This document shows, one piece after another, positions 27,629 through 36,091 of a stretch of 64,000 nt of DNA; position 1 is the first letter of the stretch, and each line of letters starts with the position of its first letter. The DNA comes from an uncultured delta proteobacterium. GTDB lineage: Bacteria > Desulfobacterota > Binatia > Binatales > Binataceae. The stretch covers positions 337,130 to 401,129 of the forward strand of contig CAWFBH010000001.1 of the NCBI GenBank assembly GCA_963814035.1, given 5' to 3'. A program made the position numbers and the translations under genes. The notes beneath the pieces are model-generated. The model was not told the DNA's origin. It ran no database searches and saw nothing but the letters and a program-made list of their open reading frames with translations.

Positions 27629-28588
27629 TCAGCGCGTATCGTCTTTGGACGGATCGGAAGGAGAATAAGGCAGCGATCCAAAACAGGCAAGGTGGACTAT
27701 TTTTTGGGGCGCGCGGCTCTCTTCGTACGGGCCGAGGCAATTTTCGCGCTCGGTCGATGGAGCATCGCGAGCAGGCGGCGAGAGTGTCGCGCGCATTTGG
27801 CCGCGTTGCACGATGGCGTCGAGCATTCCATGGGCGAGGAGAAATTCCGCGCGCTGAAAGTCAGCGGGAAGATCCTCGCCGGTGGTCTGCTTGGTCACCC
27901 GTCGTCCCGCGAAGCCGATCAAAGCGCCCGGCTCCGAAATGTTGAGGTCACCCAGCATCGCGAATGAGGCCGCGACGCCGCCCGTAGTCGGATCGCATAG
28001 CACGGATATGAAGGGCAGCCTCGCATCACGCAGTCGTGCGATCGCCGAGGAGACTTTCGCCATTTGCATCAGCGAGAGCGCGCCTTCCTGCATCCGCGCG
28101 CCGCCCGATGCCGCGAACAGCACGACGGGCAATCCCTGTTCGAGCGCATGTTCGAAAAGCCTCGCGAGTTTTTCCCCTACGACGACGCCCATGCTGCCGC
28201 CCATGAATTCGAAATCCATGATGGCGAGCGCGACCGGATGCTCTTCGATACTCGCGGTGCCGACCACTACCGCATCGTTGCGGCCGCTGGACTTGCGGGC
28301 GGCATTGAGACGGCTGGGATAGGGTTTGCTATCGACAAATTCGAGCGGGTCACCGATTGCGATGTCCGCGAAGAGTTCACGCCAGCTTCCGCGATCGGCG
28401 GTGATCGAGAGGCGCTGACTCAGGGTGAGCCGGAAATGATGACCACACTTGCCGCATACGTTGAGGTTGCGTTCGACTTCCTTGCGGAAGGCGATCTCTT
28501 TGCACTTCGGGCACTTGACCCAGATGTCTTCGGCGACCGGCGCGGTCTCGGCCGGCTTTTCGATTGGTACAGTCTCGCGCTCCGCCAT
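27629..28588 (-). CDS. accD: Acetyl-CoA carboxylase carboxyltransferase beta subunit; probable 3' frame break near 27778
   Basis: It has the Zn ribbon CPKCKE...CGKCGHH and GGSMGVVVGEK...ASGGARMQEG. The ATG at 28588 is preceded by GGGTGGA. Removing one C near 27778 gives a more typical tail, ...RLLAMLHRPSAKIASARTKRAARPKK, with a stop at 27697-27699. Confidence 0.9.
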   Translation of the reverse strand: MAERETVPIEKPAETAPVAEDIWVKCPKCKEIAFRKEVERNLNVCGKCGHHFRLTLSQRLSITADRGSWRELFADIAIGDPLEFVDSKPYPSRLNAARKSSGRNDAVVVGTASIEEHPVALAIMDFEFMGGSMGVVVGEKLARLFEHALEQGLPVVLFAASGGARMQEGALSLMQMAKVSSAIARLRDARLPFISVLCDPTTGGVAASFAMLGDLNISEPGALIGFAGRRVTKQTTGEDLPADFQRAEFLLAHGMLDAIVQRGQMRATLSPPARDAPSTERENCLGPYEESRAPQKIVHLACFGSLPYSPSDPSKDDTR

Positions 28589-28604
28589 TTGTCCACCCGT
28601 CTTA

Positions 28605-29444
28605 TTAGGCAATCGCGGCCTCGGTTCCGGCCCGCGCATGCTTCATCGCGCTCTTCATCGATCCTACCAGTTCGCCAACCTTTTTAACGAGATCCGGCGA
28701 CGAGCCATTGGTCTCGATCAGCAGTGAAAGCGCGCTACCTACGACCACCGCGTCCGCGAAGCGAGCGACCTGCGCCGCCTGGGCGGGCGTCGAGATCCCG
28801 AAGCCTACTCCAATCGGCAAATCCGTCACGCCGCGAAGATTGTTCACGTGCTCCTCGATATCAGATGCGAGTGCGGTGCGCGCGCCGGTCACGCCAGTCA
28901 CCGAGACATAATAAATGAAGCCGCTCGCGGAGCGCACTACAGTGCGTGCGCGATCGATGGGCGTTGTGGGCGCGAGCAGGTAGATGAGATCGAGGCCATT
29001 GGCATGCGCGGGCCTCTTCAACTCGCCGGCTTCGTCGGGCGGAAGATCGACCACCAGCAGGGCATCGATTCCGGCACGTGCGGCATCGGCGCAAAGTCGC
29101 TCGCAACCGTAGTGGAAAATCGGATTGAAGTAACCGAACAGGATCAGCGGAATTTCGGTTTCCTTGCGCAGCTCACTCACCATCGAAAGAATCGCGGCGA
29201 GCGATGCGCCGGATTTCAGGCCGCGCTGGGCCGCGCGCTGGTTCGCAGGACCGTCAGCCATCGGATCGGAGAACGGCACGCCCAGTTCGATGATGGCGGC
29301 GCCCTGCGCCTCGAACTCGCGGATCAGCGCCGCGGTGGCATCGAGATCCGGATCGCCTGCCACGACGTACGGAATTAGCGCGCTTTCGTTTCGCGCGCGC
29401 AGTTCTTTGAATTTGGCGCTGATCCTATGTTTCATGATGGACAT
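28605..29444 (-). CDS. trpA: Tryptophan synthase alpha chain
   Basis: ALIPYVVAGDPD...IELGVPFSDPMADGP...GFIYYVSVTGVTG is canonical TrpA. Confidence 0.95.
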   Translation of the reverse strand: MSIMKHRISAKFKELRARNESALIPYVVAGDPDLDATAALIREFEAQGAAIIELGVPFSDPMADGPANQRAAQRGLKSGASLAAILSMVSELRKETEIPLILFGYFNPIFHYGCERLCADAARAGIDALLVVDLPPDEAGELKRPAHANGLDLIYLLAPTTPIDRARTVVRSASGFIYYVSVTGVTGARTALASDIEEHVNNLRGVTDLPIGVGFGISTPAQAAQVARFADAVVVGSALSLLIETNGSSPDLVKKVGELVGSMKSAMKHARAGTEAAIA

Positions 29445-29445
29445 C

Positions 29446-30666
29446 TCAAACCCTCGCTCCCAGCGCGCCTACAATCGTATGCATGTCTTTGTCGCCACGC
29501 CCTGATAGATTGATGATCATCACCTGGTCCGGGCGCATGGTCGGCGCGAGCTTCGCCGCATACGCAACCGCATGTGAACTTTCCAGCGCCGGAATGATCC
29601 CCTCGGTCTCGGAGAGAAGTTTGAGTGCGTCGAGCGCCTCCGCATCGGTCACAGCTACATATGATGCGCGCCCACTTTGATTCAGGTACGCGAGCTCGGG
29701 GCCGACCCCGGGATAATCGAGGCCCGCAGCGATCGAATGCGTCTCGCGAACTTGCCCCAGCTCATCCTGCAAAAGGTAGGTTTTGTTGCCATGCAGTACG
29801 CCGACGCTGCCGGCGTTGATGGTCGCCGCATGCGAGGAAGTGTTGAGCCCGAGACCCGCCGCCTCGACGCCAACCATCTCGACTCCGGCGTCCTTGATGA
29901 ACGGATAGAAAAGTCCGATCGCATTGGAGCCGCCGTTGACACATGCGACCAGCACGTCGGGCAGGCGATTTTCCTTTTGCATGATTTGCTTGCGCGCCTC
30001 GCGCCCGATCACCGATTGGAAGTCGCGCACGATCATCGGATAAGGATGCGGCCCGGCCGCGGTTCCGATGAGGTAGTAGGTGTTGCGCACGGTCGCGATC
30101 CAGTCGCGCAGCGCCTCGTTGAGCGCGTCCTTGAGGCTCTTGCTGCCCGCATCGACGGCGGTGACTTTGGTGCCCAGCAGCTTCATGCGAAACACGTTGA
30201 GCGCCTGGCGTTCCACATCAACCGAGCCCATGAAGACTTCGCACTCGCGCTGAAACAGCGCGGCCATCGTCGCGGTCGCGACGCCATGCTGACCTGCGCC
30301 GGTTTCCGCGGTGATCCGCGTCTTGCCCATCCGTACCGCGAGCAGCGCCTGACCCAGCGCGTTGTTCACCTTGTGCGCGCCGGTATGACAAAGGTCCTCG
30401 CGCTTGAGATAAATCTTCGCGCCGCCGAGGCGCGCGGTGAGATTCGCCGCATGATAGAGCGGCGTCGGACGGCCGACGAACTCGCGCGAGCGCTCTTCCA
30501 GTTCGCGCTTGAAGGCCGGATCGCGGCGCGCCTCTTTGTAGGCTTTTTCCAGTTCAGCCAGCGCCGGCATCAGCGTCTCGGCGACATACTTGCCGCCGAA
30601 TTCGCCGAAGTGGCCGTGGCTATCGGGCAGACTTGGCATTGCGAATGAATCTCCTGAGTTTGTCAT
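29446..30666 (-). CDS. trpB: Tryptophan synthase beta chain
   Basis: [19 protein letters not shown]...[16 protein letters not shown] (PLP lysine context)...GGGSNAIG. The start is uncertain (30666 or 30639); the track ORF begins at 30717. Confidence 0.95.
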
Positions 30667-31232
30667 GGTCCTTGATGCCCGGAACCGATTCGACCCCGCT
30701 CGCGACATCAACCGCATAGGGCGAAAGCTCGGCGGCCTCGTGAACGTTATCGGGATTCAACCCTCCCGAGATAAACGCGCGGCTCAAATCGAGACCGCGA
30801 AGGTCGGTGAGCGAGCGTTTCGCGCCGGTGCCTCCGTAAAGTCCCGGATGAAAGGTATCGAGCAGCGTATATATGGATGTTGCGGGCGCGGCAGGTTGAA
30901 ATGTCTCGCCGGGTTTTAGCCGCAATGCTCGAATCACCGGCACCGGCCATCCCTCGAGAAATGAGTCGGGCTCGTCGCCGTGAAATTGCAGCATGTCGAG
31001 CCGCATCTGCTCGAGACAATCCATGATGAATTCGCGTGCCGCGTTCACAAACACGCCGACCACCTGGTGCGGCTCGGGAATCGCCTCGCGAATTTCGCGC
31101 GCGCGCTCGCATCGAGACCGAGCGCGGGCTGCGCGCATAAAAATTGATTCCGATCATATCGGCGCCGAAATCGATTGCGGCAAGGGCGTCCTCGACGCGG
31201 GTGATCCCGCAGATTTTGACCTTGATGTTCAT
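30620..31232 (-). CDS. trpF: Phosphoribosylanthranilate isomerase, one frame break near 31110
   Basis: The N-terminus [37 protein letters not shown] is in ORF 30747..31232. The remainder (...LQFHGDE...GGTGAKRSL...[11 protein letters not shown]) is in ORF 30620..31138. Confidence 0.9.
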
Positions 31233-32024
31233 CGCGCAGGTTCCAGCGCCTTGATTAGCTCGGGAAGTTTACCGGCGGGATTGCCGTCGCGGAGCAGGCT
31301 CTCGCCAATCAGAAATGCGCGCGCGCCCGCAGCATCGAGACGCCGAATGTCTGCTGACGTGCTGATTCCGCTTTCGGCAACGATGAGCGCCTCGCCACGA
31401 TAGTCGGCGAGCAGATTCTCGGTCACCGCCAGGTCGGTCACAAAGGTATGCAGGTCGCGATTGTTGATGCCGATCAGTTCCGCACCGATCCGGCGTCGCG
31501 AGCGCGAACTCTTCGGGATTGTGAACCTCGATCAGCGCGGCCATTTTGACTTCGCGCGCCAGCGCCGCCAGCGATCGCAGCTCGCCCTCTTTCAACATCG
31601 CAAGCGATAAGAAGGATACAGTCCGCGCCCGCCGCGCGCGCCTCGTAAATCTGGTACGGATGAAAAATGAAGTCCTTGCGCAGCAGCGGCAGATCGACCG
31701 CCTCGCGCACCGCGCGCAAATCATCGAGGGTGCCTTTGAAGTGGCGATCGGTGAGCACCGAAATCGCCGCCGCGCCGCATGCCTGGTACTCGCGCGCGAC
31801 CGCCTTCGGATCGAGATTCGGCAGAATGTCGCCCTTGCTCGGAGAGGCGCGTTTGATTTCCGCGATAATCGCGGGACGGCGTGCGCGCAGCGCGGCAATG
31901 AAGTCGCGCGGCGGCGGTGCCTCCTTTGCGCGCGCGACGATCGCGACATCGCTGACGAGCTGGCGTTGCGTCTTCGAATTCTTCGCGTTTGGCGGCGAAT
32001 ATTTTGTCGAGAATCGAAGCTCAT
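31229..32024 (-). CDS. trpC: Indole-3-glycerol-phosphate synthase, at least three frame breaks
   Basis: The fragments are (M)[14 protein letters not shown] (after removing one T near 32017), [60 protein letters not shown] and [29 protein letters not shown]. The ATG at 32024 overlaps the trpD stop in ATGA. Confidence 0.9.
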
Positions 32025-33077
32025 TTGGCTTTCGGATTTTCTTCCTGATTCCGTGCCGCCGTTGGTGATGCGTCGCATCTCGCCGATCACTTCCAGTGCG
32101 GATTCCGATTCGATGATTTCGCGCGCTCTCGCGACGCCATCGGCGAGGGACGTAGCTTTGCCGCCGACATAAATCGCCGCGCCGCCATTGAGCGCGAGTA
32201 TATCCTGCGCCGGACCCTCTTCATCTCCCACCAGGGCGGCGCGCAACAACTTCGCGGAATGGTCAGCATCATCGGCGCGCAACCCGCTGCGACCGGAGCG
32301 TTCGATTCCGAATTGCTCGGGCACGATAGTGTATTCGCGAAATCGAGTCGCCGCGGATTTCGGCAACTTTGGTTTCCGCGCTGATGGAAATCTCGTCGAG
32401 GCCGTCGAGCCCATGCACCACCATCGCGTGCTCGGTTCCGAGGACGGCAATTGCGCGCGCAACTTCCTCGAACAATTGCGCCTCCGCCACGCCGGTAACT
32501 TGGCGCGACGGCGCGGCGGGATTCACCAACGGCCCCATCAGGTTGAACAGCGTGCGGGTCTTGAGCGTGCGCCGCAGCGGTGCGAGCCGCGCCATCGCCG
32601 GATGATATGCGGGCGCGAAGATGAAGCAGCATCCGGCGGTCCGCAAGCATTTTCGCAGAATGGCGGATCGCAGATCGATCTTGATGCCGAATTTCTCCAG
32701 CACGTCGGCGCCGCCGACCTTGCCGCTGATTGCGCGATTGCCATGCTTCGCGACCGGAACCCCGGCCGCCGCCGCGATAAAAGCCGCGCCGGTCGAAATG
32801 TTGAAGGTGCCGGCGTTGTCGCCGCCGGTGCCGCACGGTGTCGAGGAGACCATCGACGCCGAGCTTGAGCGGCACGCGCGCGACGACGCATCGCCCGCGC
32901 ACATCCAGCAATCTCGTCACCGGTTTCACCCTTGACCTTGAGCGCGATCAGAAACGCGGCGGCCAATATTTCCGAAACGTCACCGTCGAGCACCTCGCCA
33001 AAAGCTCGTTCGGCGTCTTCGGCAGAAAGCGCGTGACGAGCGAGGACCGCCTCGTATGCGGATGCAAAATCGCTCAC
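32021..33077 (-). CDS. trpD: Anthranilate phosphoribosyltransferase, at least three frame breaks
   Basis: The N-terminal part is [22 protein letters not shown]. The core is [45 protein letters not shown]...[11 protein letters not shown]. The C-terminal part is [14 protein letters not shown]. These are spread over three overlapping ORFs. Confidence 0.9.
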
Positions 33078-33650
33078 GCGGCCGCTCGCTTCATGAAGTT
33101 GTGCAGGAGGTGTTTTCCCTCCGGGGTTCCGATCGATTCGGGATGAAACTGCACCCCCTCCACGAATAGCTTCTTATGACGCAAGACCCATCACTTCACC
33201 TTCCGCGGTGCGCGCGCTGATTTCGAGACATTCGGGAATCGAGTTCGCGTCGACGATGAGCGAATGATAGCGCATCGCGTCGAAGGGATTCGGCATGCCT
33301 TCGAAGATCGAGCGGCCATCGTGAATCACCGGCGAGGTCTTCCCATGCATCAGGCGTGGCGCGCGATCGACCCGGCCTCCGAACGCCTCGCCCATGCATT
33401 GCTCGCCGAGGCAGACGCCGAGAATCGGCACCTCGCCCGCGAGCTCCTTGAAAATCGAGAGCGAGATTCCCGCCTCTTTGGGCGTGCAGGGACCCGGCGA
33501 AACCACGATCGCGTCGGGATGAAGCGCGCGAACGCCCGCGATATCGATGACATCGTTGCGCTTCACGGTCACATCGGCGCCGAGCTCGCCGAGATATTGC
33601 ACGAGGTTGTAGGTGAACGAATCGTAATTATCGATCATCAAAATCTTCAC
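33074..33650 (-). CDS. trpG: Anthranilate synthase component II (glutamine amidotransferase), one frame break near 33182
   Basis: [24 protein letters not shown]...[13 protein letters not shown] carries the catalytic Cys. The tail [34 protein letters not shown] is read in the next frame. Its stop overlaps the GTG start of trpD in GTGA. Confidence 0.9.
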
Positions 33651-33654
33651 GATG

Positions 33655-35176
33655 TCACCTGACCACCGCTGCGGCAGCGGCTTCGAATTCGCGCGCCGCG
33701 TTGAGCGCGCGAATCATCGCGCGCGCCTTGTTGACGGATTCATCGAACTCCGCGCCGGGATCGGAATCGGCGACCACGCCGCCGCCGGCCTGCACATAGA
33801 CGCGATTGTTTTTGATCAGCAGCGTGCGCAACGCGATCGCGGTATCGGTATTGCCGGTGAAGCTGAAATAGCCGACCGCGCCCGCATAAACGCCGCGCCG
33901 CACCGACTCCAGCTCGTCGATAATTTCCATCGCGCGGATTTTCGGCGCGCCCGAAACCGTGCCCTGCGGAAACGTCGCGGCGAACGCATCGAAGGCGTCG
34001 CATCCGTCGCGCAGCTCGCCGGTGACATTCGAAACGATATGCATCACGCTGTAGTAGCGCTCGACCACCATCAGCTCGGTCACTTTGACCGAACCGATTT
34101 TCGCGACGCGGCCAACGTCGTTGCGACCGAGATCGACCAGCATGATGTGCTCGGCGCGCTCCTTCGGATCGGCGAGCAGTTCCTTTTCGAGGTCGCGGTC
34201 TTCGGATTCGGTCTTGCCGCGCGGGCGCGTCCCCGCGATCGGACGCAAGGTGATCTCGCTGCCCTCGACCCGCACCATCACCTCGGGCGACGCGCCGACG
34301 ATCGTGTGGTCGCCGAGCCGCAGATAAAACATGTAGGGCGAGGGATTGATGGTGCGCAGGCTGCGATAAATGTTGAACGGATGAACTTCGAGCGGCGCTT
34401 CGAAGCGCTGCGAGGGAACCACCTGGATGATGTCGCCGGCGGTGATGTACTCCTTGGCGCGCGACACCGTCGTCATGTAGGCCTCGCGATTGGTGTTCGA
34501 GGTAACGGCGACTGGAGCATCGAAGGCGATCGCGCTTCCCTCCAGCCGCGGCGGGAATGACCGGGCCGGCCAGCCGATCGATCAACTCATCGATCTTTCG
34601 CTGCGCATGCTCGTAGCCCTCGCGCGGGGAAGCGAAATCATTCACCGCGACATTGACGATCAGCGTCAGCGATTGCCGCACGTTATCGAACATGATGACG
34701 GAATCGGTGAACATCATGTAGAGATCCGGCGTGCCGAGGTCGTCGTGCGCGCGCGCCGGGATGCGCGGCTCGAAGCATCGCACGATATCATAGGCAAGAA
34801 AGCCGACCGCGCCGCCGAAAAAACGCGGCAAGCCGGGAATTTCCGGGGCCTTGAAGCGCTGCACTTCCTTGCGCAGCTCCTCGAAGGCGTTCGGCGCGAT
34901 CCGCGATTCGGTTGCGCGGCCGGGCCGGATGATATCGGTGCGGTCGCCGCGCGCGCGCATGACCATCGACGGTTCGGTCCCGAGAAAGGTATAGCGCCCC
35001 CATTTCTCGCCGCCGCGAACGCTTTCCAGCAGGAACGAGTAGTCGCCGCGCGCGACCTTCAGAAACGCCGATACGGGCGTCTCCAGGTCGGCGGCGATTT
35101 CGCGGCTGACGGGAATCAGGTTGAACCCGTCGCGCGCGAGCCGTTCGAATTGTTGCAGGTCCGGCAACAGCGCCAT
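33655..35176 (-). CDS. trpE: Anthranilate synthase component I, two frame breaks near 34480-34560
   Basis: The N-terminal half is in ORF 33740..35176 ([21 protein letters not shown]...). The C-terminal chorismate-binding half is in ORF 33655..34476 ([12 protein letters not shown]...[15 protein letters not shown]...[11 protein letters not shown]). A GGAG lies 9 nt upstream of the ATG. Confidence 0.95.
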
Positions 35177-35221
35177 TTTGTTTTCTCCCGTCTCCTGCCG
35201 CGGATCCCACGCCCCTCGCCA

Positions 35222-35264
35222 TCAAATGAAAAGGGCCGCAGGATTTTCGCCCGCGGCCCTTTGG
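35222..35264 (-). terminator. trp attenuator terminator hairpin in the trpE leader
   Basis: Minus strand: CCAAAGGGCCGC-GGGCGAAAATCCT-GCGGCCCTTTTCATTT. It lies 22 nt after the leader-peptide stop, and about 45 nt upstream of the trpE ATG. Confidence 0.7.
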
Positions 35265-35285
35265 ATCAACTGGTTTTGCGATGGA

Positions 35286-35372
35286 CTACAAAACCGGCGC
35301 GCAGGCGAATGCCGTGGTGGACCACCACCAGTTCGCCCAAGCGCTGCCGTTTACGTATTCCATTACCGTCAT
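35286..35372 (-). CDS. trpL: trp operon leader peptide (28 codons, 4 Trp, three consecutive)
   Basis: My own reading of the minus strand is ATG ACG GTA ATG GAA TAC GTA AAC GGC AGC GCT TGG GCG AAC TGG TGG TGG TCC ACC ACG GCA TTC GCC TGC GCG CCG GTT TTG TAG, which translates to MTVMEYVNGSAWANWWWSTTAFACAPVL. It is too short for the ORF track. The second in-frame ATG at 35363 is an alternative start. Confidence 0.7.
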   Translation of the reverse strand: MTVMEYVNGSAWANWWWSTTAFACAPVL

Positions 35373-35401
35373 TAAGTATGATCAGTTCGCGTCTCTGTCA
35401 A
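35373..35401 (-). promoter_or_regulatory. Candidate sigma70-type promoter for the trp leader
   Basis: A perfect TTGACA at 35401-35396 (minus strand) lies immediately after the SPOR gene stop. After a 15-nt spacer there is CATACT at 35380-35375; with a 17-nt spacer there is TACTTA. The -10 match is weak. Confidence 0.3.
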
Positions 35402-36091
35402 CTATCGCATCGCTAGGGAGCGTACGGTGTCCTTGTACTTCGCGCGAAGTTCCTGCTCAGCGGCGCTTGCCTCATCCTGACTTTGATACGGTCCCACGCG
35501 CACCCGCCACCAGGTCTGGCCGTCGATATCGGTGGGTACCATGAAGGCGCGATATCCAAGTTTCTGCAGGCGCGCAGTCATCTGCTCCGCATTAGAGCGA
35601 TCCATCGCGGCATCGATTTGGATGTTGAACGGCTTATGATGACCACCCGATGAATCGGTCGCCGAGGCATACTTCGCGGGAGGATTCGGCGCCACCGGCT
35701 TGCGTAGCGGCTGCGTCTGGGTTTGAAATCTTCGGCGCAGCCGCGGCCGCATTCGAAACCAGGCGTCGATGAAGGCGACGCAACCGGACCCGCATTCTTA
35801 TCCATCGCGAGCGAAGCGCGGCTCGCCAGGCTTTAGTCTTTTTCACCACCGCATTGGGACGCGGCCTTCATCGCGGCGGTCTGCTCCGGCGCAGCAGCGG
35901 AGCCTTCGCCACTTCGGGCGCGGGCGGCGGATTCGGCAGCGGATAAAGCTTGCGGCCTGCGGAGCTTCAGGCGCGGTACTGCGGGCGATGTCGTATCCGG
36001 CATAAATTCCGAACGCGAATACGATCACCGAAAGACCCAAGAGGCCAAGCGCGATTAAAATCCAGCCCCCGGTTCTGATCTCAAAACGCAT
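35402..36091 (-). CDS. SPOR-domain membrane protein, at least two frame breaks
   Basis: The N-terminal TM segment MRFEIRTGGWILIALGLLGLSVIVFAFGIYAGY starts at the ATG at 36091. The C-terminal SPOR domain (FNIQIDAAMDRSNAEQMTARLQKLGYRAFMVPTDIDGQTWWRVRVGPYQSQDEA) is in ORF 35402..35752. The middle is Pro/Ala-rich and spread across frames. Confidence 0.75.

What the first reader, a model, noticed from the sequence alone, without database searches (positions are those of the whole stretch)
35222..35401. Unlisted Trp-rich leader peptide (W-x-x-WWW) plus terminator: a ribosome-mediated trp attenuator
Upstream of trpE, on the minus strand, a 28-codon ORF (35372 to 35286) encodes MTVMEYVNGSAWANWWWSTTAFACAPVL. 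It has four Trp codons, three of them consecutive (TGG TGG TGG at 35330-35322). Trp is normally among the rarest residues.

Twenty-two nt after its TAG lies a GC-rich hairpin (GGGCCGC, a 13-nt loop, GCGGCCC) running into TTTTCATTT. That hairpin ends about 45 nt upstream of the trpE ATG.

Alternative pairings are visible:
- The Trp codons sit in GTGGTGG-T-CCACCAC.
- Leader codons 22-25 (TTCGCCTGCG, 35309-35300) can pair over 10 positions, with one G-U, with CGCGGGCGAA (35255-35246). That stretch overlaps the 5' arm and loop of the terminator and is a plausible antiterminator.
- A GGTTTTG/CAAAACC hairpin spans the leader stop codon.

A perfect TTGACA sits at 35401-35396. Together these match the logic of classical E. 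coli-type transcription attenuation, and the six-frame track misses the ORF entirely because it is under 60 codons.
Basis: partly seen in the sequence, partly recalled or inferred. Interest (0 to 1): 0.6.

Follow-up and report, generated by a model that had tools for sequence, protein, structure and literature searches.

The report
Tryptophan attenuator of uncultured Binataceae
A short tryptophan-rich mini-gene and switchable RNA hairpins ahead of the tryptophan-synthesis genes of an uncultured soil bacterium form a classical ribosome-sensing on/off switch; the switch is conserved across the bacterial family and has been copied and re-coded to sense other amino acids.

Summary
On the minus strand, upstream of a trpEGDCFBA-accD operon in a Candidatus Binataceae MAG, a Trp-rich leader ORF is followed by an intrinsic terminator.

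The leader can form three mutually exclusive pairings:
- 1:2, -27.6 kcal/mol
- 2:3 antiterminator, -30.6 kcal/mol
- 3:4 terminator, -23.9 kcal/mol

Folding with a ribosome footprint masked on the Trp codons gives the antiterminator. A ribosome at the stop codon, or no ribosome, gives the terminator.

A covariance model built from the element hits 145 of 151 Binataceae genomes and 30 of 30 genera. No Trp mini-ORF precedes trpE in 20 genomes of sister families.

- The conserved start is the ATG at 35363, giving 25 codons. The ATG at 35372 abuts the -10 box.
- The distance from TTGACA to the ATG is fixed at 37-39 nt and there is no Shine-Dalgarno sequence, so the leader is probably translated from a (near-)leaderless mRNA.
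- An extra covarying helix joins the start-codon and stop-codon regions.

The same scaffold occurs as a paralog with Asn/Asp codons upstream of non-discriminating AspRS. An Ile/Leu/Val leader precedes ilvB.

The mechanism is classical. This is a new lineage with some variant features.

The parts
35396..35401 (-). -35 box TTGACA of the leader promoter
   Evidence: Present in all aligned relatives (TTGACA or TTGACT). It sits 37-39 nt from the leader ATG in 37 of 41 sequences.
35373..35378 (-). -10-like hexamer TACTTA, 17 nt after the -35 box and 9 nt before the conserved ATG
   Evidence: Read from the sequence. Relatives have GATACT, CTATTT, TATCTA and similar hexamers at the same spacing. The consensus scanner did not call it, so it is a weak -10.
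35286..35363 (-). Leader ORF trpL: 25 codons plus TAG, MEYVNGSAWANWWWSTTAFACAPVL; no Shine-Dalgarno sequence
Evidence: The 25-26-codon ORF is conserved with the motif AWxxW[W/R]W...ACAPVL in about 50 genomes.
35322..35339 (-). Sensor codons: TGG at 35339-35337 and TGG TGG TGG at 35330-35322
   Evidence: The two outer TGG codons of the triplet are invariant in alignment A1. The middle codon is CGN (Arg) in most genera and TGG in this genus.
35332..35338 (-). Region 1 (GGGCGAA), which pairs with region 2; same sequence as part of region 3
   Evidence: The 1:2 helix forms in the MFE fold (-27.6 kcal/mol for the isolated 1-2 segment). The core pairs are kept in 21-39 of 42 sequences, with some AU-to-GC changes.
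35314..35329 (-). Apical hairpin over the Trp codons (GGTGGTGG-T-CCACCAC)
   Evidence: In other genera the equivalent pairing is GGCG of TGG-CGN with CGCC of region 2 (RNAalifold consensus). At fixed columns it is only 58% paired.
35296..35309 (-). Region 2 (TTCGCCTGCG-C-GCC): the switch strand, pairing with region 1 or with region 3
   Evidence: The columns are nearly invariant, wobble positions included. It pairs with region 3 in 90.8% of cells, against 37-49% in slid controls.
35272..35295 (-). Stop-spanning hairpin S (GGTTTTG ... CAAAACC), nested inside the antiterminator
   Evidence: 95.9% of cells are paired, with compensatory UA-to-CG and UA-to-GC changes.
35281..35289 (-). 3' strand of helix P0 (G-TAG-TCCAT); its partner is the 5' strand at 35355-35363 (ATGGAATAC)
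   Evidence: Register-specific pairing of 70.6%, against 29-47% in other registers, and 0 of 2000 permutations reach it. Each position shows several pair types.
35246..35258 (-). Region 3 (GGC-CGCGGGCGAA): the 5' arm of the terminator and partner of region 2 in the antiterminator
   Evidence: The G/A polymorphism at column 128 pairs with U in both alternative helices.
35224..35259 (-). Intrinsic terminator: stem 35259-35250 with 35242-35233, 7-nt loop, U-tract TTTTCATTT at 35232-35224
   Evidence: -23.9 kcal/mol. 96.7% of cells are paired across 42 sequences.
35174..35189 (-). trpE ribosome-binding site (GGGAG, 35189-35185) and start codon (35176-35174)
   Evidence: The product matches Anth_synt_I_N and Chorismate_bind.
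27629..35176 (-). Regulated operon trpE-trpG-trpD-trpC-trpF-trpB-trpA-accD
   Evidence: Pfam hits. trpE, trpD and trpC are split between frames in this assembly by single-base indels.

Best explanation
This is a ribosome-mediated (leader-peptide) transcription attenuator of the trpEGDCFBA-accD operon of a Candidatus Binataceae bacterium.

Transcription starts at a TTGACA-17-TACTTA promoter, and the 25-codon leader ORF begins only about 9 nt after the -10 box. The ORF is therefore probably translated from a leaderless or near-leaderless 5' end.

When charged tRNA-Trp is plentiful, the ribosome runs to the TAG. There it covers the 3' part of region 2 and the 5' arm of hairpin S. The terminator (3:4) forms and RNA polymerase stops at the U-tract, 47 nt before trpE. 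With no translation at all, the whole ORF folds into a long rod (helix P0 joining the start and stop regions, plus 1:2, plus the Trp-codon hairpin). Region 3 is again left free for the terminator.

When Trp-tRNA is scarce, the ribosome stalls on W-x-x-W-W-W. Its footprint hides region 1 but ends just before region 2. Region 2 pairs with region 3 as region 3 emerges, giving a 13-bp antiterminator with hairpin S nested inside. The terminator cannot form and the operon is transcribed.

Shown here: the sequence elements, their competing energies, the geometry, and conservation and covariation. Inferred: the transcription start site, translation of the ORF, and Trp dependence in vivo.
For: - ORF, Trp codons and helices are at the stated coordinates.
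- The downstream genes are trpE, G, D, C, F, B, A and accD.
- Isolated helix energies are 1:2 -27.6, 2:3 plus S -30.6 and terminator -23.9 kcal/mol.
- With a 30-nt footprint masked on any of the three consecutive Trp codons, and RNA transcribed through region 3, the MFE is the antiterminator. With the footprint on the stop codon, the terminator forms. The unconstrained fold gives 1:2 plus the terminator, z = -3.6.
- The same 25-26-codon ORF (AWxxW[W/R]W...ACAPVL*) lies 110-175 nt upstream of trpE in more than 40 Binataceae contigs and in 9 of 9 further family genomes.
- Covariance model R1 hits 145 of 151 family genomes, 94 of 95 high-quality ones and 30 of 30 genera.
- Pair counts, against 34-53% in slid controls: terminator 96.7%, antiterminator 90.8%, hairpin S 95.9%.
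- P0 covaries.
- The -35 to ATG distance is 37-39 nt in 37 of 41 sequences, with no SD. trpE itself has GGGAG.
- A paralog of the same scaffold matches R1 over its full length at 54-86 bits. It carries Asn/Asp codons in the sensor region and precedes aspartate--tRNA(Asn) ligase. It folds the same way.
- A third leader...ILGLILVVVVV..., precedes acetolactate synthase with the same promoter-to-ATG spacing.
- Leaderless trp leader peptides have a precedent in Deinococcus deserti (PMC4007540).
Against: - There are no experimental data: the lineage is uncultured, and the metatranscriptome material available is assembled contigs that do not define 5' or 3' ends. One 164-nt RNA-run contig from a relative extends to 35402, over the -35 box. 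This could be DNA carry-over or read-through from the upstream SPOR gene. If it is read-through, it argues against a leaderless start.
- The -10 hexamer is weak, and the promoter and terminator scanners called nothing here.
- Most helix columns are invariant, so covariation support for 1:2 and 2:3 is thin.
- Genome-wide, ATG codons at the leaderless distance from TTGAC[AT] are only modestly enriched.
- At equilibrium the terminator state always wins, so antitermination depends on kinetics, which were not modelled.
- In this assembly trpE is frameshifted. This is probably a sequencing error, but it is formally a pseudogene here.
Confidence: 0.87

Rival explanations
1. The attenuator is the same, but the leader ORF is not leaderless. 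Transcription would start further upstream, or read through from the SPOR-domain gene that ends at 35402. The ORF would then be translated by SD-independent internal initiation, and the conserved TTGACA would have another role.
For: An RNA-run contig from a relative covers 35246-35402, including the -35 box. The -10 hexamer is weak and was not called by the scanner. Genome-wide enrichment of leaderless-type spacing is only modest.
Against: The TTGACA-to-ATG distance is fixed at 37-39 nt in 37 of 41 sequences although the intervening sequence varies. The same spacing is seen in the Asx paralog and in the unrelated ilvB leader, which has good -10 boxes such as TATGTT, TATTGT and TAGTAT. There is no SD before the leader ATG. 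Metatranscriptome contigs may contain DNA.
Confidence: 0.3
2. The mini-ORF is an independent small-protein gene with its own terminator, or its RNA or peptide acts mainly in trans as rnTrpL and peTrpL do in Sinorhizobium. On this view trpE is expressed from its own promoter.
For: The peptide's N-terminal part (NRKAWANW) and C-terminus (ACAPVL) are conserved. Trans functions of a trp attenuator RNA and its peptide are documented in S. meliloti (PMC6614838, PMC7298713; abstracts).
Against: Only 47 nt, including the trpE SD, separate the U-tract from the trpE ATG, so there is no room for a promoter. Conservation of the C-terminal codons includes wobble positions, which points to constraint on the RNA rather than the peptide. 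The paralog changes its sensor codons to match its downstream gene. A trans role in addition to cis attenuation is not excluded.
Confidence: 0.05
3. Termination is controlled by a factor other than the ribosome, such as a TRAP-like protein, uncharged tRNA (T-box) or a ligand-binding RNA, and the Trp codons are incidental.
For: The terminator and antiterminator alternative is by itself compatible with any such effector.
Against: No Rfam family, including T-box, matches even at E<=10 or at gathering score anywhere in the window. Only 4 (G/U)AG triplets occur in 190 nt. The two outer TGG codons are invariant and lie at the right distance from region 2. The codons are swapped in the paralog.
Confidence: 0.03

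Closest known systems
Escherichia coli trpL attenuator (Rfam RF00513, Trp_leader)
   Same: The logic is the same. A short ORF with Trp codons precedes the operon. Helices 1:2, 2:3 and 3:4 compete, and there is an intrinsic terminator before trpE. A stalled ribosome frees region 2, and a ribosome at the stop codon masks it.
   Different: No sequence or structure similarity was detected (no RF00513 hit at E<=10). The leader has 25 codons rather than 14, and its sensor is W-x-x-W-[W/R]-W rather than W-W. There is no SD, and the start codon lies about 9 nt from the -10 box. It has an extra start-stop helix (P0) and a hairpin nested in the antiterminator. The operon is trpEGDCFBA-accD.
Sinorhizobium meliloti trpL attenuator of trpE(G) (rnTrpL / peTrpL; PMC6614838, PMC7298713)
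   Same: It is a ribosome-dependent attenuator upstream of trpE in a soil bacterium. From my own knowledge, its peptide contains three consecutive Trp residues.
   Different: From my own knowledge, the S. meliloti leader is SD-led, has 14 codons and controls trpE(G) only. Its released RNA and peptide have documented trans functions. Nothing of that kind was tested here.
Leaderless leader peptides of Deinococcus deserti, including trpEGD (PMC4007540), and leader peptides of Corynebacterium glutamicum trpE, leuA, ilvB and aroF (PMC3890552)
   Same: In D. deserti the leader peptide starts at or 1 nt from the transcription start, and such leaders precede both amino-acid biosynthesis genes and aminoacyl-tRNA synthetase genes.
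   Different: Those start sites were mapped by dRNA-seq, whereas here the start is inferred from spacing only. The phylum is different (Binatota). Here two attenuators with different amino-acid specificity are demonstrably paralogous copies of one RNA scaffold.

Membership tests
Ribosome-mediated (leader-peptide) transcription attenuators | A short ORF enriched in codons of the pathway's amino acid, immediately upstream of the biosynthetic operon | tested here: met
   4 Trp in 25 codons, 3 of them consecutive, 110 nt before trpE. Conserved in about 50 relatives.
Ribosome-mediated (leader-peptide) transcription attenuators | An intrinsic terminator (GC-rich hairpin plus U-tract) between the leader ORF and the first structural gene | tested here: met
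   A 10-13-bp stem of -23.9 kcal/mol followed by UUUUCAUUU. 96.7% of cells are paired across 42 sequences.
Ribosome-mediated (leader-peptide) transcription attenuators | An antiterminator helix mutually exclusive with the terminator | tested here: met
   Region 2 pairs with the terminator's 5' arm (13 bp; -30.6 kcal/mol including the nested hairpin). 90.8% paired against 37-49% in slid controls. A compensatory UGCC/GGCA variant occurs in a paralog, read from the sequences.
Ribosome-mediated (leader-peptide) transcription attenuators | An upstream anti-antiterminator (1:2) hidden by a ribosome stalled at the sensor codons, while a ribosome at the stop codon masks region 2 | tested here: met
   Footprint-masked folds. 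The last Trp codon ends 12 nt before region 2, and region 2 ends 11 nt before the stop codon (coordinates).
Ribosome-mediated (leader-peptide) transcription attenuators | The leader ORF is actually translated | not testable with these tools
   There is no SD. Translation is inferred from the leaderless-type promoter-ATG spacing and from ORF conservation. No ribosome profiling or proteomics exists for this uncultured lineage.
Ribosome-mediated (leader-peptide) transcription attenuators | Read-through depends on the supply of the cognate charged tRNA | not testable with these tools
   Only assembled metatranscriptome contigs were available. The indirect support is the Asn/Asp-coded paralog upstream of AspRS(ND).
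Rfam Trp_leader (RF00513) | A match to the family covariance model | tested here: not met
   No hit at E<=10 in 34900-35800, and none at gathering score in the window.
T-box leader / TRAP-controlled trp leader | A T-box consensus and specifier loop, or an array of about 9-11 (G/U)AG repeats | tested here: not met
   No Rfam T-box hit. Only 4 scattered (G/U)AG triplets in the 190-nt leader.
Leaderless mRNAs | A primary 5' end at or within a few nt of the start codon | tested here: inconclusive
   A fixed 37-39 nt from -35 to ATG and the absence of an SD support it. No TSS data exist, and one RNA-run contig overlaps the promoter.

The most novel reading that the evidence does not exclude
Binataceae carry a re-codable, probably leaderless leader-peptide attenuator module. 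It is one scaffold of about 145 nt, consisting of:
- an AUG abutting the promoter;
- 25-26 codons;
- a helix joining the start and stop regions;
- a region-2 switch strand, a nested hairpin and a terminator.

This scaffold has been duplicated and its sensor codons exchanged, from Trp to Asn/Asp. The second copy controls a non-discriminating AspRS, so a single leader would monitor charging of both tRNA-Asp and tRNA-Asn, the two substrates of the enzyme it regulates.

This would be a natural example of modular evolution of ribosome-sensing attenuators, comparable to specifier swapping in T-boxes.
Probability: 0.55. Interest if true: 0.55.

Novelty: new member of a known kind. Interest (0 to 1): 0.42.

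Why it matters
The finding extends classical trp attenuation to Binatota, an uncultured phylum. The full-text search found no paper mentioning both Binatota and tryptophan.

It provides a covariance model that annotates an unlisted small ORF and regulatory RNA in about 96% of Binataceae genomes.

The wider interest lies in the variant features:
- Translation is apparently SD-less and leaderless.
- A helix ties the start region to the stop region.
- One scaffold has been duplicated and re-coded from Trp to Asn/Asp for a non-discriminating AspRS.

The trp and Asx pair is a natural codon-swap experiment. It supports the mechanism without culture work and gives a tractable system for studying how attenuators change specificity.

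Tried and rejected
- **Rfam at permissive threshold.** Only sub-threshold noise. The best match, BjrC68 at 19.8 bits against a gathering score of 39, is just the terminator.
- **Consensus promoter and terminator scan.** Nothing was called, because the -10 is weak and the U-tract is interrupted.
- **Metatranscriptome contigs.** They show that relatives are present in RNA runs. They are assembled unitigs at a depth of 2-5 and cannot define 5' or 3' ends, so they were not used as evidence for a TSS or for termination.
- **Genome-wide distance histogram from TTGAC[AT] to ATG-led long ORFs.** There is only a modest excess at 35-39 nt, so this is not evidence that leaderless mRNAs are common in this genome.
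- **Weak R1 hits below 36 bits.** These are ordinary terminators at gene ends, not attenuators.
- **L187 and L189 (55-67 bits).** They look like the 3' half of the scaffold at the end of a coding region and have no leader ORF. They remain unexplained and were not counted.
- **L118 (a 'Nannocystis' contig).** A chance match to my DNA pattern, with no Trp codons and no trpE.
- **Frame-shift origin of the Asx sensor.** I considered that the Asx sensor region arose from the Trp one by a 1-nt frame shift. A by-eye comparison gave only about 6 of 18 matches, so I dropped the idea.
- **A downstream 4:5 pairing seen in the long fold.** It is not conserved in relatives, so I ignored it.

Full report
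**What is there.**
The minus strand between 35401 and 35177 reads, in order:
- TTGACA (35401-35396), a 17-nt spacer, TACTTA (35378-35373), then 9 nt.
- ATG (35363) opening a 25-codon ORF, MEYVNGSAWANWWWSTTAFACAPVL, that ends in TAG (35288-35286).
- A hairpin that spans the stop codon (GGTTTTG 35295-35289 with CAAAACC 35278-35272).
- A GC-rich hairpin (GGGCCGCGGG 35259-35250 with CCTGCGGCCC 35242-35233, 7-nt loop) running into TTTTCATTT (35232-35224).
- 47 nt later, behind a GGGAG Shine-Dalgarno sequence, the ATG of trpE (35176).

The minor corrections are listed in the observation check.

The downstream genes are trpE, trpG, trpD, trpC, trpF, trpB, trpA and accD (Pfam). Upstream lie a SPOR-domain gene that ends at 35402 and argS.

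**Which organism.**
Relatives of the neighbouring ArgRS are MAGs labelled Candidatus Binataceae, Binatia or 'uncultured delta proteobacterium'. That places the window in the uncultured phylum Binatota (PMC8262859, listed).

**Conservation.**
- The leader DNA is found in the genus and, more weakly, across the family.
- In every oriented relative, a 25-26-codon ORF with the motif AW-x-x-W-[W/R]-W ... ACAPVL* occupies the same place.
- A degenerate DNA pattern for the end of the ORF plus the terminator arm retrieved 44 contigs from 185,579 species genomes. Of these, 42 carry the Trp ORF and 41 have trpE detectable downstream (110-175 nt after the leader stop); the other (L135) ends at the contig edge. 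One is a chance hit, and one is the Asx paralog described below.
- A covariance model built from 42 distinct sequences (A1, R1) hits 145 of 151 Binataceae genomes, 94 of 95 high-quality ones and 30 of 30 genera.
- In 20 genomes from five sister families of the same class, no mini-ORF with clustered Trp codons lies within 450 nt upstream of trpE. The element is therefore a family-specific lineage.
- Rfam has no match, including Trp_leader and T-box.

**Start codon and promoter.**
Several congeners lack the ATG that corresponds to 35372 but keep the one at 35363.

The distance from the T of TTGAC(A/T) to the A of the conserved ATG is 37-39 nt in 37 of 41 sequences, although the intervening sequence differs widely. 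That distance is -35 box, 17 nt, hexamer, then 8-10 nt. No Shine-Dalgarno sequence precedes the leader ATG, whereas trpE has one.

The ATG at 35372 directly abuts the -10-like hexamer, so it should lie upstream of the transcript.

I infer that the leader is translated from a leaderless or near-leaderless 5' end, with about 55-60% confidence. A trpEGD leader peptide with its TSS 1 nt from the start codon has been mapped in Deinococcus deserti (PMC4007540).

The evidence on this point is incomplete:
- The -10 is weak and was not called by the scanner.
- A genome-wide test shows only a modest excess of ATG-led ORFs at this spacing.
- The metatranscriptome material is assembled contigs that cannot define ends. 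One of them overlaps the -35 box.

**RNA switch.**
The unconstrained fold of the leader gives a long hairpin over the ORF plus the terminator (z = -3.6).

| Structure | Energy |
|---|---|
| 1:2 (GGGCGAA 35338-35332 with TTCGCCT, plus flanking pairs and an apical hairpin over the Trp codons) | -27.6 kcal/mol |
| Antiterminator 2:3 (TTCGCCTGCG-C-GCC 35309-35296 with GGC-CGCGGGCGAA 35258-35246, stop-spanning hairpin nested inside) | -30.6 kcal/mol |
| Terminator | -23.9 kcal/mol |

With a 30-nt ribosome footprint masked on any of the three consecutive Trp codons, and RNA transcribed through region 3, the MFE structure is the antiterminator. With the footprint on the stop codon, the terminator forms.

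The geometry fits the classical model. The last Trp codon ends 12 nt before region 2, and region 2 ends 11 nt before the stop codon.

At equilibrium the full-length leader always prefers the terminator. As in other attenuators, the decision must therefore be kinetic.

**Comparative support for the helices.**
Across 42 distinct sequences, against 34-53% when partners are slid:

| Helix | Cells paired |
|---|---|
| Terminator | 96.7% |
| Antiterminator | 90.8% |
| Stop-spanning hairpin | 95.9% |
| 1:2 helix (as drawn, incl. flanking pairs) | 71.9% |

Most columns are invariant, wobble positions of the A-C-A-P-V-L codons included. This points to constraint on the RNA, not the peptide, but it leaves little covariation. 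Compensatory changes do occur in the stop-spanning hairpin, and a G/A polymorphism in region 3 pairs with U in both alternative helices.

RNAalifold additionally pairs GGCG of the TGG-CGN codons with CGCC of region 2. That is a second way in which the sensor codons occlude region 2.

The first codons of the ORF pair with the stop codon and the 8-9 nt after it (in the window, AUGGA/UCCAU plus UAC/GUA). These segments vary between genera yet stay complementary. In one fixed register 70.6% of positions pair, against 29-47% in other registers. No permutation out of 2000 reaches this value, and each position shows several pair types. This helix (P0) extends 1:2 into a rod that covers the whole ORF. 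It is incompatible with the nested hairpin of the antiterminator state.

**A natural control: paralogs.**
R1, which was built only from trp leaders, finds a second full-length match in this genome (G000:C6:60454-60598) and in many relatives. There a 25-codon ORF, MMLNRDNRNDGDNRRSCVCARVPVS, has the same TTGACT-17-CTAACT-8-ATG arrangement, region 2, nested hairpin and terminator. It lies 18-23 nt upstream of a gene scored as aspartate--tRNA(Asn) ligase (NF003483, 467.6 bits against a cutoff of 353).

Asn/Asp-rich variants occur in at least ten genomes spanning at least five genera. Footprint-masked folding behaves as for trp. One variant changes region 2 to UGCC and the terminator arm to GGCA, which keeps the antiterminator pairing (sequences).

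So the same scaffold senses Trp before trp genes, and Asn plus Asp before the enzyme that charges both tRNAs. I take this as the strongest available argument that the codons are the sensor.

A third, unrelated leader (MFSADAHDNRIPSAQILGLILVVVVVTEAIAP) precedes acetolactate synthase (NF006016, 910 bits). It has a -35.4 kcal/mol terminator and TTGCAT-17-TATGTT-9-ATG, and it is conserved in the genus.

A strict scan of the 4.95-Mb assembly for TTGAC[AT], 36-42 nt, ATG, an ORF of 12-40 codons and a terminator returns only the trp and Asx leaders plus one other hit, a 15-codon ORF with no gene downstream.

**Verdict.**
The mechanism is the classical one, so the trp element itself is a new member of a known kind. 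It is a new sequence lineage in an uncultured phylum, not described in the literature I could search.

The variant features raise the interest above that of a routine annotation:
- A probable leaderless start.
- The start-stop helix P0.
- A duplicated scaffold re-coded for a non-discriminating AspRS.

Nothing here was tested in vivo.

**Caveat on the assembly.**
trpE, trpD and trpC are split between frames by single-base indels relative to a close congener (92% identical over the 4-kb leader-trp stretch) whose trpE is an intact 511-codon ORF. Two such indels fall in the promoter spacer (35381) and the terminator loop (35243). They look like long-read errors; the genome's completeness is 75.6% in only 29 contigs. 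They do not affect the conclusions.

Noticed in passing
G000:C6:60454-60598 (minus strand; locus L174 2955-3099); relatives L176, L208-L214, L112: A paralog of the trp leader scaffold. It has a 25-codon Asn/Asp-rich ORF (MMLNRDNRNDGDNRRSCVCARVPVS), the same promoter-ATG spacing, and the same region 2, nested hairpin and terminator. It lies 18-23 nt upstream of aspartate--tRNA(Asn) ligase (non-discriminating AspRS). It is conserved in several genera.
   Followed up: yes
G000:C23:26416-26661 (minus strand; locus L215): A third leader-peptide attenuator. The 32-codon ORF MFSADAHDNRIPSAQILGLILVVVVVTEAIAP is followed by a very stable terminator (-35 kcal/mol) and the acetolactate synthase large subunit gene. 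The arrangement TTGCAT-17-TATGTT-9-ATG again places the ATG about 9 nt after the -10 box. It is conserved within the genus.
   Followed up: partly
window 31495-34552 (also 35381 and 35243): At least 14 single-base indels relative to a close congener (92% identical over the compared 4-kb stretch) split trpE (about 34552), trpD and trpC between reading frames. The congener's trpE is an intact 511-codon ORF. These are most likely long-read assembly errors, which fits 75.6% completeness in only 29 contigs. ORF-based annotation of this genome will be unreliable.
   Followed up: partly
L187 (G191:C4:442385-442560) and L189 (G041:C47:14474-14650): Matches of 55-67 bits to the trp-leader model that retain region 2, the nested hairpin and the terminator. 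They have no Trp-rich or other leader ORF and seem to sit at the 3' end of a coding region. They may be decayed or re-used copies of the scaffold.
   Followed up: no
window 35402-35752 (minus strand): The upstream SPOR-domain gene (116 aa) ends at 35402, 1 nt before the -35 box of the leader promoter. No terminator is evident between them, so read-through into the leader is conceivable.
   Followed up: no
alignment A1, column 46-48 (window 35327-35325): In most Binataceae genera the middle codon of the sensor triplet is Arg (TGG-CGN-TGG). Its CG pairs with region 2. Only the window's genus has TGG-TGG-TGG, a CGG-to-TGG change that adds a third consecutive Trp codon.
   Followed up: partly
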